A stretch of DNA of 64,000 nt from Escherichia coli. Lineage in GTDB: Bacteria; Pseudomonadota; Gammaproteobacteria; Enterobacterales; Enterobacteriaceae. Of the stretch, positions 3,319 through 12,251 are shown piece after piece (the stretch's first letter is position 1; every line of letters begins with the position of its first letter). The notes beneath the pieces are model-generated. The model worked only from the letters and a program-made list of their open reading frames with translations, searched no databases and had not been told where the DNA came from. The DNA lies in NCBI RefSeq assembly GCF_003334335.1, contig NZ_QOWQ01000003.1. One strand, written 5' to 3'. The position numbers and the translations under genes are program-made.

Positions 3319-3357
3319 AAAACACTAAAGGGGCTTTTAAGCCCCTTCTGTATGCTG

Positions 3358-4515
3358 TTAATCGTCGTCCTGTGGCAGTTCCAGAATCTTGATCGCGTTC
3401 GAATCCACCACGCCACCGCCTAAATATTTCTGCGTGAAAATTTTGATGAAGCCCGGCTCTGTGAGGTTGTCCGGTCTGGTGCGAACACCTGTTTCGTGAT
3501 CAACAATGTAGTAACCGCGTTTGAAGTCACCCAGGGCAATAACGTTATCAGGCATAAACTCCAGATATTCGACCGGAAGGCCCAGCAACGTATCAGGATC
3601 ACCCGCCTGTAAACGGTCACGCCAGATGTAATCACCGTTCGCGTTCTTCACCTTCTGGAGTTTTGCCGCCGTCGTGGAGTTAACCACCCAGACCGCGTTT
3701 TTGCGGTATTTTTTACGTAATGCAAATTTCAGGTCGATCAGCGGGTCCGCAGATGTCCACGCCAGAGATTCGGAAGGTTTAATTACCTGCAACGTACCAA
3801 AATCACGCTCTTTGTCGTTCTTCTCTGCACGGGGTACGGATAAAAAGCCTTTTGCTTTTTTGTCACCGTCGCCCACAACCAGATCGCTTTCTTCGGTTTC
3901 CGTGAAGGTGTCGCCAATCTCGCCCGTCAGCCATGAAAGGATGTCCACATCGGAAAAATCCACGATTTCCTGTGTGGTGCGCGGGTACGCATAGACCGGA
4001 TACAGCTTAATGCTCACCTCGTTAATCTGCGGGGTGCTGGTCTGTTCGCGTGTCTTACCCTCTTCACCGTGGTTAACGGTCGCACCGCCAGCGGAAACAA
4101 GCTGCTTAAACTCGTTGCTGCTGATTTTCTTCACGGTACAGATGCGGCGCATGGTGGATTCATCCGTCAGCATTCGCATGATTTCGGTGTTCAGTTCGGG
4201 GATAACGGTATAACCACCATCAGCGGGAACGCCTGTACTTAATGCGCGGGTTTCACCTGTCAGGATGTAGTTGCGGAGTTCTGCCGGGTCAGTGGTCTGG
4301 CTGCTTTTACCTGGCTTGCTGCGCTCTTCGTCTGCAATGGCTTCAAGGCGGGAAATGTCTTTATCGAGGGATTCAGCTTTAGCGCGTAATTCGTCAAATG
4401 TTGCGCCCTCAGCATCGTTAAGACTGCGGTTTTCTTTTTCCGCGTTCTCCAGCATGTCGCGCATCTGATTTTTAATGGCGGTTTTCTGCTGGCGTAATTC
4501 GATTATTCTCGGCAT
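3358..4515 (-). CDS. Major capsid protein, HK97 family, with an N-terminal scaffolding (delta) domain.
   Basis: 385 aa. A coiled-coil-rich N-terminal stretch of about 100 aa is followed by an HK97-fold-like body. This is typical of HK97-type capsid proteins that need no separate scaffold. Confidence 0.9.
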   Translation of the reverse strand: MPRIIELRQQKTAIKNQMRDMLENAEKENRSLNDAEGATFDELRAKAESLDKDISRLEAIADEERSKPGKSSQTTDPAELRNYILTGETRALSTGVPADGGYTVIPELNTEIMRMLTDESTMRRICTVKKISSNEFKQLVSAGGATVNHGEEGKTREQTSTPQINEVSIKLYPVYAYPRTTQEIVDFSDVDILSWLTGEIGDTFTETEESDLVVGDGDKKAKGFLSVPRAEKNDKERDFGTLQVIKPSESLAWTSADPLIDLKFALRKKYRKNAVWVVNSTTAAKLQKVKNANGDYIWRDRLQAGDPDTLLGLPVEYLEFMPDNVIALGDFKRGYYIVDHETGVRTRPDNLTEPGFIKIFTQKYLGGGVVDSNAIKILELPQDDD

Positions 4516-4554
4516 AAAAAAAGTCCTGGGGTTAAGTAAGGAACTCCAGGACGC
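4516..4554 (-). terminator. Terminator-like hairpin immediately upstream of the capsid ATG. Its 3' arm contains the capsid Shine-Dalgarno sequence.
   Basis: The minus-strand RNA reads GCGTCCTGG-AGTTCCTTACTTAACC-CCAGGAC-TTTTTTT-ATG. That is a 7-bp stem (4523-4529 / 4546-4552), a 16-nt loop and a U7 run. AGGA lies inside the 3' arm, 8 nt before the ATG. Confidence 0.45.
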
Positions 4555-4707
4555 GGCAAAAACTCAACCGTTTTTCATAAGGAAATCAGCAATCGCACCG
4601 ATCGTTTTCCCGCCTGGTAATGAATATTGGCGAGAACATTAACAGGCGGAAAAGTGGCCCCAGCGTCCTGGCACCACGGGCGAGAATAATCATGATTCAG
4701 TTCGGGT

Positions 4708-4755
4708 AAAATATGCCGATCCTGTCAGTGAACAACGTGGAACAACCGCGAACAA
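4708..4755 (-). promoter_or_regulatory. Candidate promoter of the packaging/capsid operon with three helically phased direct repeats.
   Basis: GAACAA on the plus strand (TTGTTC on the minus strand) occurs at 4730, 4740 and 4750, exactly 10 bp apart. The proximal copy sits at a -35 position, 16 bp from a TATTTT -10-like hexamer (4708-4713, minus strand). Confidence 0.35.
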
Positions 4756-4773
4756 ATAATTTACAAAAAATGA

Positions 4774-4796
4774 CAAAAAGCCGGATTGCTCCGGCT
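4774..4796 (-). terminator. Rho-independent terminator after the 74-aa orphan gene.
   Basis: Minus strand: AGCCGGA-gcaa-TCCGGCT followed by TTTTTGTCATTTTTT. Confidence 0.75.
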
Positions 4797-4806
4797 GTAT
4801 GCGTGC

Positions 4807-5031
4807 TCAGTCCCTGATCCCTTTCAGAAATTCTATCAATGCATCTATCTGTTCAGGATTTACCGCCAGCATTTCACCGGACAGAGCACATCTCACAAAA
4901 CCATGCTGATCCTTTTCAATCAGTGCGCCCGTCTCCAGGAATGCGCGGTAATCATTGATGCTCATCGTCTCCATGTTGTCAGCATGGTATTTATCACGCT
5001 GTTTTAATATCTCATCAAATTTCATCGGCAT
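4807..5031 (-). CDS. Hypothetical protein (74 aa) in a stand-alone cassette.
   Basis: Track ORF 4807..5109. The preferred start is ATG 5031 (MPMKFDEILK...), preceded by GAGGAAAA. It is bracketed by two near-identical terminators. No family recognised. Confidence 0.55.
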   Translation of the reverse strand: MPMKFDEILKQRDKYHADNMETMSINDYRAFLETGALIEKDQHGFVRCALSGEMLAVNPEQIDALIEFLKGIRD

Positions 5032-5125: not shown

Positions 5126-5150
5126 CAAAAAAAGCCGGATTTCTCCGGCT
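5126..5150 (-). terminator. Rho-independent terminator after the perC-like gene.
   Basis: Minus strand: AGCCGGA-gaaa-TCCGGCT followed by TTTTTTTG. The stem is identical to the terminator at 4774-4796. Confidence 0.75.
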
Positions 5151-9413: not shown

Positions 9414-9510
9414 AGCTACCTCGATACTCTCGTTATCGTTGGTGGTTAGAAGCCCGGTTAGTGTTAGCGCACTGCCGGGTTTCGTCGTTTCTGCACCTTG
9501 CGCCAACAAG

Positions 9511-10292: not shown

Positions 10293-10481
10293 TTAATGAA
10301 CTGCCTTGCAGCTATCCTTCCAGGCCAGAACCTCGGATAAAGACCAGCCAACGGAACGACCGCCAAGTTTACGACGTGATGGGAATTGTCCGGCCTTTTC
10401 CAGGCGGTAGCGACACGTACGGCTAAGGCCGGTTAGTTTTTCGCATTCTTTTTCACGTATAAACCGATCAGTGCTTAACAC
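10293..10481 (-). CDS. alpA: AlpA-family (MerR-type HTH) phage/satellite transcriptional regulator.
   Basis: The C-terminal 62 aa read LSTDRFIREKECEKLTGLSRTCRYRLEKAGQFPSRRKLGGRSVGWSLSEVLAWK, a classic AlpA signature. The likely start is GTG 10481, preceded by AGGGGGG. The track ORF extends to ATG 10562. Confidence 0.8.
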   Translation of the reverse strand: MLSTDRFIREKECEKLTGLSRTCRYRLEKAGQFPSRRKLGGRSVGWSLSEVLAWKDSCKAVH

Positions 10482-10632
10482 TATTGCCCCCCTTTCGTTT
10501 CTTAAAGAGTCATCAGGTGTCTTATTGTGTCGTATTGTTCCCGCTAGAGTGATGAATGGCAAATATTGAGGATGTATTATTTACAGAAAATGAAACAGTA
10601 AGAATAAAATCTTTTAAATTCATGTTAATACA

Positions 10633-10665
10633 AAGGCATAAAATATTGTTTCATGCCTTTTTTTT
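10633..10665 (+). terminator. Orphan terminator-like hairpin on the plus strand in the int-alpA intergenic region.
   Basis: AAGGCATAAAA-tattg-TTTCATGCCTT (one mismatch) followed by a T-run ending at 10665. No plus-strand gene lies upstream, so the function is unknown. Confidence 0.4.
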
Positions 10666-10813
10666 CGCTCTTTAAAGAGTGATTCGCTAGTGTATAAAAA
10701 ACCAGTGACACATTAAAAATCAGCCACTTATAAATCTGTATGCTTTTTCGCCTCTTGTTCGTGGTTGTTCCACATTGTTGCTCATTGTTGCACGTTGTAT
10801 CTGTTCGCATATC

Positions 10814-10829
10814 CAGTATGCGCATACTG
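10814..10829. promoter_or_regulatory. Perfect 16-bp palindrome CAGTATGCGCATACTG just downstream of int. Candidate protein-binding site.
   Basis: The palindrome is seen directly. No U-run follows on either strand, so it is not a canonical terminator. Confidence 0.3.
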
Positions 10830-12123: not shown

Positions 12124-12251
12124 GATCGTTGCACAAAGGGCTACAACGTGAAACAAGCTGGAACAAGGAAAATCACAAATCTGTTGATAATCAAAAACAT
12201 AATGCACAGCCTGAAACATTATGAAACAGCAAAAAACACTAAATGATAAAA

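What the first reader, a model, noticed from the sequence alone, without database searches (positions are those of the whole stretch)
4516..4760. Capsid operon leader with phased upstream repeats and competing terminator/antiterminator pairings that also hide the capsid RBS
The head module is insulated from upstream transcription by two terminators and has its own leader of about 290 bp. Three things are visible in it.

1. GAACAA repeats occur at 4730, 4740 and 4750, exactly one helical turn apart. The proximal copy sits at the -35 position of a TATTTT -10-like box. This looks like an activator-dependent promoter.

2. Directly before the capsid ATG the RNA can fold as GTCCTGG-N16-CCAGGAC-UUUUUUU. 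This is an intrinsic-terminator shape whose 3' arm contains the AGGA Shine-Dalgarno sequence.

3. About 110 nt upstream the RNA contains CCAGGACGC (plus strand gcgtcctgg, 4663-4671). It is perfectly complementary over 9 nt to the 5' arm GCGUCCUGG (4546-4554). This gives a longer alternative pairing that would prevent terminator formation and free the RBS.

The implication is that capsid production is gated at both transcription and translation. That would make sense for a satellite that must time head synthesis to the helper's late phase.
Basis: seen in the sequence. Interest (0 to 1): 0.6.

Follow-up and report, generated by a model that had tools for sequence, protein, structure and literature searches.

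The report
Switchable leader RNA before satellite capsid gene
The capsid operon of this E. coli phage satellite (an EcCIEDL933/CP-933C-type capsid-forming PICI) starts with a structured leader RNA of about 160 nt that can fold in two mutually exclusive ways; one fold forms a terminator-shaped hairpin that hides the ribosome-binding site, and relatives keep the same three-piece design, so it is probably a real but undescribed control element.

Summary
All three sequence observations are real, sit at the stated coordinates and exceed chance.

**Supported**
- The head module sits behind two terminators.
- A conserved upstream block precedes it: TTGTAAAT plus three phased TTGTTC repeats.
- Its leader ends in a hairpin plus U7 that buries AGGA.
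- The upstream CCAGGACGC can pair with the hairpin's 5' arm.
- The same three-element design (5'-proximal copy, complementary arm, SD-containing arm) recurs in two other cf-PICI leader types of different sequence. One compensatory change falls on a base that is bulged in the SD hairpin.

**Revised**
The repeats then lie at about -53 to -89.
- CCAGGACGC is not free. It is the apex of a conserved hairpin, HP1, at the predicted 5' end of the transcript.
- The U-tract is found only in this E. coli/Shigella lineage. Across the family, the conserved feature is SD occlusion.
- At equilibrium the closed, terminator state wins by 6-10 kcal/mol. The alternative pairing is the best fold only for nascent RNA, before the 3' arm exists.

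No regulator, transcription start or 3' end has been shown. No Rfam family matches. The published cf-PICI papers I read do not analyse this promoter or leader.

The parts
5133..5150 (-). Intrinsic terminator after the PerC-family gene (AGCCGGAGAAATCCGGCT + T7)
   Evidence: PerC assignment
4807..5031 (-). 74-aa conserved small protein (phrog_1957, unknown function). It is encoded directly upstream of the capsid leader in the six cf-PICIs where the neighbouring gene was translated, and a matching C-terminal reading frame is visible in several other loci.
   Evidence: C-terminal frames in other loci; AF2 pLDDT 90 with no fold match
4771..4796 (-). Intrinsic terminator (AGCCGGAGCAATCCGGCT + TTTTTGTCATTTTTT) that closes the upstream transcription unit
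4759..4766 (-). TTGTAAAT box. It is present in most relatives at a fixed distance (89-90 nt before HP1 in 99 of about 120 fetched islands), at about -82 to -89 from the predicted start.
4730..4755 (-). Three TTGTTC repeats at 10-bp spacing (about -53 to -78). Presumed binding array for an unidentified activator.
   Evidence: conserved in L001 and in window-type variants; degenerate TGTTYMC-like repeats in other types
4705..4710 (-). -35-like TTTACC (4 of 6). It aligns with the conserved TTTAC(A/T/C) box of relatives.
4683..4688 (-). -10-like TATTCT, with a 16-nt spacer. It aligns with the conserved T-A-(T/A)-N-T-T box that lies exactly 5 nt before HP1 in more than 100 leaders.
4654..4677 (-). 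HP1: predicted 5'-terminal hairpin GUGGUGCCAG-GACG-CUGGGGCCAC (-15.6 kcal/mol). Its apex CCAGGACGC (4671-4663) is the upstream competitor.
   Evidence: homologous hairpin with 3 compensatory pairs in 96 relatives; covariance-model match
4606..4653 (-). HP2: long hairpin UUUUCCGCCUG...CAGGCGGGAAAA abutting HP1
   Evidence: all 10 basal pairs compensatory in relatives; U-G to C-G change in window-type variants; covariance-model match
4584..4603 (-). Small predicted hairpin in the linker (GAUCGGU...GCUGAUU). Support is weak.
4546..4554 (-). GCGUCCUGG: the shared segment. It is the 5' arm of the SD/terminator hairpin and the partner of the HP1 apex. It is invariant in 28 window-type variants.
4523..4552 (-). 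HP3: GUCCUGG-A-GUU / loop 8 / AAC-C-CCAGGAC. The 3' arm holds AGGA (4527-4524).
   Evidence: wobble-compatible and pair-creating variants
4516..4522 (-). U7 tract (U7-U8 in variants). It serves both as the terminator tail and as the SD-to-AUG spacer.
3358..4515 (-). HK97-fold major capsid gene, the first gene of the packaging operon

Best explanation
**What it is.** A bistable cis-acting leader RNA of the cf-PICI capsid operon.

**Inferred promoter.** A weak sigma-70-type promoter (TTTACC, 16 nt, TATTCT) is served by an upstream array of TTGTAAAT plus three phased TTGTTC repeats. It probably starts transcription at about G4677.

**Closed state.** The first 24 nt fold at once into HP1, followed by HP2. 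In this state HP1 and HP3 coexist. HP3 plus U7 has the form of an intrinsic terminator ending at 4522-4516, and it buries the AGGA Shine-Dalgarno. Transcripts would therefore stop just before the capsid ATG, and any read-through mRNA would be poorly translated.

**Open state.** The apex of HP1 (CCAGGACGC) pairs with GCGUCCUGG. HP3 then cannot form, so RNA polymerase passes the U-tract and the SD is free.

**How the choice is made (inferred).** The open pairing is the best fold only during the roughly 25-nt interval after the 5' arm has been made and before the 3' arm exists. The choice is therefore kinetic. It depends on how fast the nascent 5' arm invades HP1 through its GACG loop, compared with how fast polymerase reaches the 3' arm. 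Anything that slows polymerase there or loosens HP1 would turn capsid synthesis on.

**Family-wide versus lineage-specific.** Across the family, the conserved output is SD occlusion versus exposure. The E. coli/Shigella EDL933-type lineage has added a U-tract, so the same switch would also act as a transcription attenuator.

**Shown versus inferred.**
- Shown: sequence, structures, conservation, covariation and energetics.
- Inferred: the transcription start, actual termination, the direction of regulation and the trigger.
For: **Structure**
- z = -6.5 against shuffles.
- HP1, HP2 and HP3 appear in the minimum-energy and centroid folds.

**Homology of HP1 and HP2**
- A covariance model built from 96 relatives matches window 4677-4576 with E = 4.6e-6.

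**Covariation in relatives**
- HP1 has 3 of 9 pairs compensatory.
- HP2 has 10 of 10 pairs compensatory.
- 96.9% of cells are paired, against about 40% when the partners are slid.

**Alternative helix in type-A leaders**
- 13 pairs are 98% paired.
- Pair 15-129 is U-A in 90 sequences and G-C in 6, with none unpaired. Position 129 is a bulge in HP3, so HP3 pairing does not constrain it; the alternative helix does.

**Recurrence in other leader types**
- The window type keeps complementarity although both partners differ from type A: CCAG-GACG-C pairs with G-CGUC-CUGG, versus A-GACG-UGA with UCA-CGUC-U.
- Type C has CAUGUAGG near the 5' end pairing with CCUGCAUG, the 5' arm of its SD hairpin. 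In 6 of the 7 type-C leaders folded, the long-range helix is the minimum-energy fold.

**Nascent-RNA folding**
- Window transcripts ending at 4546-4530 fold into the alternative helix. From 4523 onward, HP1 plus HP3 wins.
- In type A the alternative helix is in the minimum-energy fold for 56 of 96 truncated leaders, but for only 1 of 96 full-length leaders.

**Conservation within the window type**
- HP1 and the 5' arm are unchanged in 27 of 28 window-type variants (the exception turns the closing G-C pair of HP1 into G-U; the 5' arm is unchanged in all 28).
- Changes in the 3' arm are mostly wobble-compatible or create a pair.
- The tail is U7-U8 in all.

**Rarity of the terminator shape**
- 2 per 64 kb, against 0.1 in shuffles.

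**Promoter boxes**
- They are conserved at fixed spacing from HP1.
Against: - At equilibrium the closed state is favoured by 6.0 to 9.7 kcal/mol, and the predicted probability of the alternative pair is about 0.
- HP1 forms first and is stable, so the switch needs a kinetic route or a factor. None was found. There is no conserved leader ORF, no complementary RNA elsewhere in the window and no Rfam aptamer.
- Double-sided covariation for the alternative helix inside type A rests on one change shared by 6-7 sequences, probably a single event. The other pairs are invariant or vary only by wobble.
- The U-tract exists only in one nearly clonal lineage with 95-100% identity.
- Three natural variants carry changes that weaken HP3.
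- The transcription start and the 3' ends are predictions only.
Confidence: 0.5

Rival explanations
1. This is translation and stability control only. HP3 is just an SD-occluding hairpin. The U-run is an A/U-rich SD-to-AUG spacer rather than a working terminator. HP1 is a 5'-terminal stem-loop that protects the mRNA from 5'-end-dependent decay. The HP1-HP3 complementarity tunes ribosome access, for example by giving a short co-transcriptional window for ribosome loading, and has no effect on transcription.
For: - Type-A leaders have the SD hairpin and the alternative pairing but no U-tract.
- HP1 begins at the predicted +1.
- The alternative fold is transient in both leader types.
Against: - In this lineage the hairpin is directly followed by U7-U8, kept in all 28 variants. 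That geometry is rare by chance.
- Other leader types carry terminator-like hairpins with U-tracts inside the leader: L048, L049 and type D.
Confidence: 0.2
2. Processive antitermination decides expression. RNA polymerase is made terminator-resistant by a factor loaded at a promoter (an AlpA- or Q-like protein) or by the HP1-HP2 RNA itself (in the manner of HK022 put). It then reads through the leader terminator and the one after the capsid gene. The HP1-HP3 complementarity is secondary.
For: - The island encodes a PF05930 AlpA protein.
- P. aeruginosa AlpA is an antiterminator whose targets have an intrinsic terminator just upstream of the first gene (PMC7969949).
- Four minus-strand terminators lie in series: 5150, 4796, 4552 and 3348.
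- HP1 plus HP2 form two adjacent stem-loops of about 72 nt at the 5' end, as put does (PMC9378689).
- Leader terminators sit at different places in different leader types.
- TTGTTC arrays also lie upstream of alpA and of int in this island. AlpA activates its own promoter in EcCICFT073, whose int and alpA are reported to be identical to those of EcCIEDL933 (PMC6092414; 10.1101/2022.09.08.507074).
Against: - No P. aeruginosa-type ABE (GGGACG-N5-GGTA) lies in the leader or between the -35 and -10 boxes.
- The leader model finds nothing in the HK022 immunity region, where the put sites lie.
- An island with different AlpA proteins and no TTGTTC array near them keeps the same TTGTTC array at its capsid leader.
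- This model does not explain the compensatory change at a bulged base.
Confidence: 0.12
3. The repeated heptamers are DNA sites for a protein. CCAGGAC(GC) occurs in three copies (two forward, one inverted), and the type-A equivalents are AGACGTGA and TCACGTCT. These would be operator-like sites for one DNA-binding protein. Their co-variation would reflect a change in that protein's specificity rather than RNA pairing.
For: - The motif copies co-vary together.
- The island has DNA-binding proteins of unknown target.
Against: - HP1 and HP2 show many compensatory changes outside the shared motif, which only a folded single strand explains.
- The second and third copies sit exactly around the SD and start codon.
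- The spacing between copies varies from 100 to 140 nt.
Confidence: 0.05
4. The element has no regulatory function. The complementarity would be a by-product of how HP3 was rebuilt from HP1-like sequence, and the hairpin merely a leftover.
For: - The window-type leader is nearly clonal.
- An 11-bp complementarity nearby (4690-4680 with 4510-4500) proved to be unconserved.
Against: - Three sequence-distinct leader types share the same design.
- HP1 and the 5' arm are unchanged in 27 of 28 window-type variants, the 5' arm in all 28.
Confidence: 0.05

Closest known systems
Classical terminator/antiterminator attenuators (trp-type four-segment leaders; expression platforms of transcriptional riboswitches)
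   Same: - Four segments pair as 1:2 and 3:4 (HP1 and HP3), or alternatively 2:3.
- Segment pair 3:4 is a hairpin followed by a U-tract directly upstream of the first gene.
- The outcome is decided during transcription.
   Different: - There is no conserved leader peptide.
- There is no recognised ligand- or tRNA-binding domain.
- The same hairpin also hides the SD.
- In most relatives there is no U-tract, so the output is translational.
SD-sequestering leaders opened by an upstream competing element (rpoS leader with DsrA, phage Mu mom with Com, lambda cIII alternative structures, kinetic control of the MS2 maturation gene). Recalled from general knowledge and not tested here.
   Same: - An inhibitory stem covers the ribosome-binding site.
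- A competing pairing exposes it.
- Nascent RNA and refolded RNA differ in accessibility.
   Different: - Here the competitor is in cis and is itself locked in a 5' hairpin.
- No trans RNA or protein partner is known.
Lambda Q (pR'-tR') and P. aeruginosa AlpA antitermination (PMC7969949, PMC9371919)
   Same: - A late or lysis-type operon is preceded by a promoter, a short leader and an intrinsic terminator just before the first gene.
- The island's master inducer belongs to the AlpA family.
   Different: - No ABE- or QBE-like element lies between the -35 and -10 boxes.
- The repeats lie upstream, at about -53 to -89.
- No evidence exists that the PICI AlpA binds RNA polymerase.
HK022 put RNA (PMC9378689)
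   Same: - It is a two-stem-loop RNA of about 70 nt.
- It lies at the start of a transcript in an element whose head genes are HK97/HK022-like.
- Terminators follow it.
   Different: - No sequence or structure similarity was detected with the leader model.
- HP2 is conserved only as a helix.
- The HP1 apex is complementary to the SD hairpin, which put does not need.

Membership tests
Intrinsic (Rho-independent) terminator | G+C-rich stem-loop immediately followed by a U-tract | tested here: met
   Seven perfect pairs plus three more, an 8-nt loop, -13.0 kcal/mol, and U7 starting at the base after the stem. U7-U8 in 28 variants.
Intrinsic (Rho-independent) terminator | RNA 3' ends in the U-tract in vivo or in vitro | not testable with these tools
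   No transcript data are available.
Terminator/antiterminator attenuator | An upstream segment pairs with the terminator's 5' arm, excluding the terminator | tested here: met
   A 9-nt perfect complement at 4671-4663 with 4554-4546. It is the minimum-energy fold of transcripts ending at 4546-4530. The equivalent pairing is conserved in types A and C.
Terminator/antiterminator attenuator | A sensor that biases the choice (leader peptide, ligand pocket, RNA-binding protein or tRNA) | tested here: not met
   The ATG of the only candidate leader ORF is not conserved and lies upstream of the predicted start. There is no Rfam aptamer. No complementary RNA occurs in the window.
AlpA/Q-type promoter-loaded antitermination | Factor-binding element embedded between the -35 and -10 boxes (P. 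aeruginosa ABE: GGGACG-N5-GGTA) | tested here: not met
   No match within 4516-4800 at up to 2 mismatches. Window-wide counts equal chance.
AlpA/Q-type promoter-loaded antitermination | An AlpA-family protein is encoded, and an intrinsic terminator lies just upstream of the first gene of the target operon | tested here: met
   PF05930 at 10293-10562. Terminator-shaped hairpin at 4552-4516.
HK022 put RNA | Sequence and structure relatedness to putL/putR | tested here: not met
   The leader covariance model gives only E > 4 in HK022 27.6-30.1 kb with filters off. This is a one-directional test. No put model was available.
cf-PICI capsid-leader RNA of type A (defined here by model R1) | 5' hairpin with a GACG loop, followed directly by a long second hairpin | tested here: met
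   Window 4677-4576, 19.7 bits, E = 4.6e-6 in a 601-nt search with filters off. Nothing passed the default filters on the full 64 kb.
cf-PICI capsid-leader RNA of type A (defined here by model R1) | SD hairpin GGUUUC(A)CGU/ACGGAAACC just before the ATG | tested here: not met
   The model skips this part. The window keeps the 5' half (CGUCCUG...CUUAACC, as in the L001 subtype) but pairs it with a new 3' arm.
Any Rfam family | Match at or near the gathering score | tested here: not met
   Only hits of at most 19 bits, to the upstream terminator.

The most novel reading that the evidence does not exclude
The HP1-HP2-HP3 leader is a previously undescribed family of kinetically controlled riboregulators found in many capsid-forming phage satellites of Enterobacterales. 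It would set when and how much capsid protein is made by coupling translation to the act of transcription, and in the EDL933 lineage it would also control transcription read-through. It might respond to polymerase speed or to a satellite or helper factor that acts on the invariant GACG-loop hairpin. In the EDL933 lineage the terminated leader of about 160 nt could additionally be a stable small RNA with targets of its own.
Probability: 0.3. Interest if true: 0.7.

Novelty: new variant of a known kind. Interest (0 to 1): 0.6.

Why it matters
Capsid-forming PICIs build their own heads and steal only tails. How they switch on the head operon has not been described: the cf-PICI papers I read contain no promoter or leader analysis.

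This work yields three things:
- a defined promoter candidate;
- a conserved upstream binding array;
- a leader with two testable conformations.

Together these make the question directly approachable with a handful of point mutants and reporter fusions.

If the switch works, it would add a factor-independent or new-factor attenuator to satellite biology. It would also matter for engineering cf-PICI particles as delivery vehicles, because it would limit capsid yield.

Tried and rejected
Rejected, because the TATTTT position is not conserved as a -10 box and overlaps the conserved -35-like box.
2. **A leader peptide starting at ATG 4692.** Rejected, because the ATG is absent in many relatives and lies upstream of the predicted start.
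3. **The 11-bp closing stem (4690-4680 with 4510-4500) seen in the first fold.** Rejected, because a T-to-G change breaks it in 5 variants without compensation.
4. **AlpA as the protein that binds the repeats.**
   - For: this island has further TTGTTC arrays before alpA and int, and AlpA auto-activates.
   - Against: an island with other AlpA alleles has the array only at the capsid leader.
   - Left open.
6. **Relation to HK022 put.** No similarity.
7. **P. aeruginosa ABE motif.** Absent.
8. **Known RNA families.** None match.
9. **A trans partner RNA in the window.** None found.
10. **A wider type-C data set by pattern search.** The pattern was too unspecific and yielded only one new leader.
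11. **Transcript-mapping papers for CP-933C/SpLE2.** Nothing usable was found.
12. **cos site or replication iterons as explanations for the repeats.** Judged unlikely for two reasons. The array travels with the capsid module regardless of replicase type. The HNH-terS region, where HK97-type cos sites lie (general knowledge), is elsewhere.
Full report
**Context**

The left 12 kb of the window, read on the minus strand, is a capsid-forming phage-inducible chromosomal island of the EcCIEDL933 / CP-933C type. The gene order is:

| Coordinates | Feature |
|---|---|
| 12076-10847 | integrase |
| 10562-10293 | AlpA-family regulator (PF05930) |
| 8013-6616 | AAA_25 helicase |
| 5850-5440 | SSB |
| 5549-5157 | PerC-family protein |
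| 5031-4807 | small conserved protein |
| 4515-3358 | HK97-fold capsid |
| 3318-2746 | S78 protease |
| 2744-1533 | portal |
| 1578-465 | head completion protein, connector, HNH |

This rests.
- The same DNA is in 689 of 5426 complete E. coli genomes, including O157:H7 strains.
- One capsid homologue is annotated by its source as the capsid of prophage CP-933C.
- The published descriptions of this satellite family that I read contain no analysis of the promoter or leader of the packaging operon.

**The observation**

- Repeats. TTGTTC repeats lie at 4755-4750, 4745-4740 and 4735-4730, at exact 10-bp spacing. The exact two-copy pattern is found only three times in 64 kb. The relaxed pattern gives 19 matches against 6.5 expected.
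- Hairpin. It is GUCCUGG (4552-4546) and CCAGGAC (4529-4523), followed by U7 (4522-4516) and the ATG at 4515.
  - Three further pairs reduce the loop to 8 nt.
  - The energy is -13 to -14 kcal/mol.
  - A perfect 7-bp stem abutting at least 6 T occurs only twice in the window on both strands, against 0.1 in shuffles.
- Third copy. CCAGGACGC (4671-4663) is a perfect 9-nt complement of GCGUCCUGG (4554-4546). The probability in the upstream 230 nt is about 4e-4.
- Insulating terminators. Two nearly identical terminators (5150-5133 and 4796-4779) precede the region.
- Overall fold. The leader folds far better than shuffles, with z = -6.5.

**Comparative material**

Within E. coli and Shigella this leader is 95-100% identical, so I collected relatives in several ways.
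- 80 loci from species-representative genomes, using a capsid alignment.
- 120 satellite-sized viral contigs, using a degenerate pattern for the first hairpin.
- 58 viral contigs, using the window's capsid.
- Full islands from Citrobacter, Salmonella and E. coli.

The leaders fall into types.

| Type | Hosts | Main features |
|---|---|---|
| A | many Enterobacterales | shares the first two hairpins with the window |
| B | Xenorhabdus | short leader |
| C | Xenorhabdus, Photorhabdus, Arsenophonus | different structured leader |
| D, E | other hosts | differ again |

**Promoter**

I anchored more than 100 distinct upstream regions on the first hairpin. This shows:
- a box T-A-(T/A)-N-T-T exactly 5 nt before the hairpin (TATCTT, TATGTT, TATATT, TAAATT);
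- a TTTAC(A/T/C) box 16 nt further upstream;
- three degenerate repeats of 10-11 bp period;
- a TTGTAAAT box, present in most, 89-90 nt before the hairpin.

In the window these elements are:

| Element | Coordinates |
|---|---|
| TATTCT (-10) | 4688-4683 |
| TTTACC (-35) | 4710-4705 |
| TTGTTC repeats | 4755-4730 |
| TTGTAAAT | 4766-4759 |

The two promoter boxes are unchanged in 28 window-type variants. TTGTAAAT is also unchanged, and the repeats carry only a few point changes.

This places the start at about G4677, the first base of the hairpin, and the repeats at about -53 to -89.

In types A1, B and C an intrinsic terminator with covarying stem lies between the repeats and the -10 box. In the window and its nearest relatives it lies just upstream of TTGTAAAT. 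Either way, upstream transcription is stopped immediately before this promoter. The start site itself is an inference.

**The leader RNA**

From the predicted start the RNA folds as follows:

| Element | Coordinates | Description |
|---|---|---|
| HP1 | 4677-4654 | GUGGUGCCAG-GACG-CUGGGGCCAC, -15.6 kcal/mol |
| HP2 | 4653-4606 | long hairpin |
| weak hairpin | 4603-4584 | low support |
| HP3 + U7 | 4552-4516 | SD/terminator hairpin and tail |

The evidence for HP1 and HP2 in relatives is strong.
- An alignment of 96 distinct type-A leaders gives HP1 with 3 of 9 pairs changed on both sides.
- All 10 basal pairs of HP2 change on both sides.
- Overall, 96.9% of cells are paired, against about 40% when partners are slid.
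- A covariance model from that alignment matches window 4677-4576 at E = 4.6e-6 in a filter-free local search. It aligns HP1 and HP2 as predicted, but not HP3.

So CCAGGACGC is not a free upstream segment. It comprises the upper 5' arm, the GACG loop and the first base of the 3' arm of a conserved hairpin at the predicted 5' end.

**The competing pairing**

In type A, the HP1 apex AGACGUGA is complementary to UCACGUCU. That sequence is the 5' arm of the hairpin GGUUUC(A)CGU/ACGGAAACC, which sits just before the capsid ATG and holds the weak SD.

- The helix extends to 13 pairs, with 98% of cells paired.
- In a sub-clade, HP1 reads CUCC-GACG-GGAG and the distal arm reads UUUCCCGUC. The correlation is perfect (92 and 7 distinct sequences; U-A in 90 and G-C in 6 within the alignment).
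- The changed base in the distal arm is the bulged A of the SD hairpin, so pairing within HP3 puts no constraint on it, whereas the long-range helix does.
- This is one event, not many. The other pairs are invariant or vary by wobble only.

Independent support comes from the other leader types.
- Window type. The 5' half of its HP3 (CGUCCUG...CUUAACC) is homologous to that of the L001 subtype of type A. It pairs with a new 3' arm, however, and the HP1 upper stem has changed from CUCA/UGAG to CCAG/CUGG. The HP1-HP3 complementarity is thereby kept on the other side of the GACG:CGUC core.
- Type C. CAUGUAGG, about 10 nt from the predicted start, pairs with CCUGCAUG, the 5' arm of CUGCAUG-N19-CAUGCAG-AGG. 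With a 6-bp extension this long-range helix is the minimum-energy fold in 6 of the 7 type-C leaders folded. Its natural variants are wobble-to-Watson-Crick changes.

Three sequence-distinct leaders therefore share one logic: a 5'-proximal copy of the SD-containing arm competes for the same complementary segment.

**Energetics**

- In the window, the closed state (HP1 plus HP3) beats the forced alternative by 6.0 kcal/mol for the leader with 30 nt of coding sequence, and by 7.6-9.7 kcal/mol for the transcript lengths tested. The equilibrium probability of the alternative pair is about 0.
- For nascent transcripts ending between 4546 and 4530, however, the alternative helix is the minimum-energy fold. 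HP1 plus HP3 takes over once the 3' arm (4529-4523) exists.
- Type A behaves the same way. The alternative is in the best fold for 56 of 96 truncated leaders but for only 1 of 96 full-length ones. The SD hairpin is present in 83 of 96 full-length folds.
- The mean cost of the alternative in type A is 6.1 kcal/mol, with a range of 0-12.

This is the signature of a switch decided during transcription, not of a simple longer-wins competition.

**Terminator or translational hairpin?**

- The U-tract directly after the SD hairpin is found only in the window type, where all 28 variants keep U7 or U8.
- Type A has no U-tract.
- Some type-C members (L048, L049) and type D carry separate terminator-like hairpins with U-tracts inside the leader.

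I conclude two things:
- SD occlusion versus exposure is the family-wide output;
- the EDL933 lineage has added transcription attenuation to it.

Within the window type, HP1 is unchanged in 27 of 28 variants (one turns its closing pair into G-U) and the shared 5' arm in all 28. The 3' arm shows C-to-U changes that keep or create pairs, and three variants have disruptive changes.

**Who acts on it?**

Unknown.
- TTGTTC arrays almost identical to the leader's, spacers included, lie at 10755-10810 on the plus strand, between int and alpA. A weaker one lies at 12166-12143, upstream of int.
- AlpA activates its own promoter in EcCICFT073, whose int and alpA are reported to be identical to those of EcCIEDL933 (PMC6092414; 10.1101/2022.09.08.507074).
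- This makes AlpA a candidate binder in this island. But another E. coli cf-PICI, with different AlpA-like proteins and no array near them, has the same array at its capsid leader. The link is therefore uncertain.
- A small protein (phrog_1957, window 5031-4807) is encoded directly upstream of the leader in all six cf-PICIs where I translated the neighbouring gene. A matching C-terminal frame is visible in several other loci. Its model is confident, but it has no structural relative.
- P. aeruginosa AlpA is an antiterminator whose targets carry a terminator just before the first gene. Its binding motif is absent here, however.
- The two-hairpin 5' module recalls HK022 put RNA in size and position, but the leader model finds nothing in the HK022 immunity region.
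- No Rfam family matches.
- The leader occurs in satellite-sized records rather than in tailed phage genomes.

**Verdict**

The element is best described as a bistable, co-transcriptionally decided leader that gates capsid translation and, in this lineage, probably transcription.

Its mechanism belongs to a known kind, attenuation by alternative RNA pairing. The RNA itself and its use in phage satellites are not described. The trigger, the transcription start and actual termination remain to be shown.

Noticed in passing
window 10755-10810 (+ strand) and 12143-12166 (- strand): There are further arrays of the same phased repeat. One is TTGTTCgtggTTGTTCcacaTTGTTGctcaTTGTTGcacgTTGTAT, between int and alpA and inverted relative to the capsid copy. 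A weaker one lies upstream of int. The spacers are nearly identical to the leader's, which suggests a shared binding protein or a recent duplication.
   Followed up: partly
window 10625-10825 versus 10293-10562 (- strand): The 66-aa ORF next to int is not AlpA; its translation looks like noise. The real PF05930 AlpA gene is 10293-10562, so the int-alpA intergenic region is about 285 bp long and rich in repeats.
   Followed up: yes
window 10814-10829: A perfect 16-bp palindrome, CAGTATGCGCATACTG, lies just downstream of the int stop codon and next to the repeat array. It could be an operator.
   Followed up: no
window 5133-5150 and 4779-4796: The two terminators flanking the small-protein gene are nearly identical (AGCCGGAG[A/C]AATCCGGCT). 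Some E. coli islands lack the stretch between them (hits H11-H14). This is consistent with deletion or insertion by recombination between the copies.
   Followed up: partly
window 4807-5031 (- strand): A small protein of PHROG family 1957 is encoded directly upstream of the capsid leader in the six cf-PICIs where the neighbouring gene was translated. The AlphaFold model is confident (pLDDT 90, alpha-alpha-beta3-alpha) but has no structural relative in the PDB. The ORF list gives a 100-aa version, but the start with a good SD is at 5031.
   Followed up: partly
window 4680-4690 with 4500-4510: An 11-bp perfect complementarity links the -10 region to capsid codons 2-5 and closes the whole leader in the first fold. 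A T-to-G change breaks it in five natural variants without compensation, so it is probably chance.
   Followed up: yes
window 4570-4578 (- strand): ATGAAAAAC in the linker resembles the capsid start of relatives (ATGAAAAAACT...). This capsid instead begins MPRII, not the family's MKKLL. Together with the new 3' arm of HP3, this hints that the 5' end of the gene and the end of the leader were rebuilt in this lineage.
   Followed up: no
window 4530-4536 with 4563-4569 (- strand): The HP3 loop and upper stem contain CUUAACC, a motif also present in the loops of the L001-subtype and type-C hairpins. It is complementary to GGUUGAG just upstream of HP3, so a pseudoknot is possible.
   Followed up: no
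window 3327-3348 (- strand): A strong terminator-like hairpin (GAAGGGGCUU...AAGCCCCUUU) lies between the capsid and protease genes. It could lower downstream expression, or it could require read-through.
   Followed up: no
L001 3190-3732 (E. coli 2014C-3075 cf-PICI): In this related island the position held by PerC in the window is occupied by a ProQ/FinO-family RNA chaperone gene, two genes upstream of a type-A capsid leader. FinO-type proteins promote pairing between stem-loops (general knowledge).
   Followed up: no
window 9414-9486 (+ strand): A weak match to the SymR antitoxin RNA family (33 bits; gathering score 61; E = 0.005 in a 14-kb search), antisense to the 340-aa ORF.
   Followed up: no
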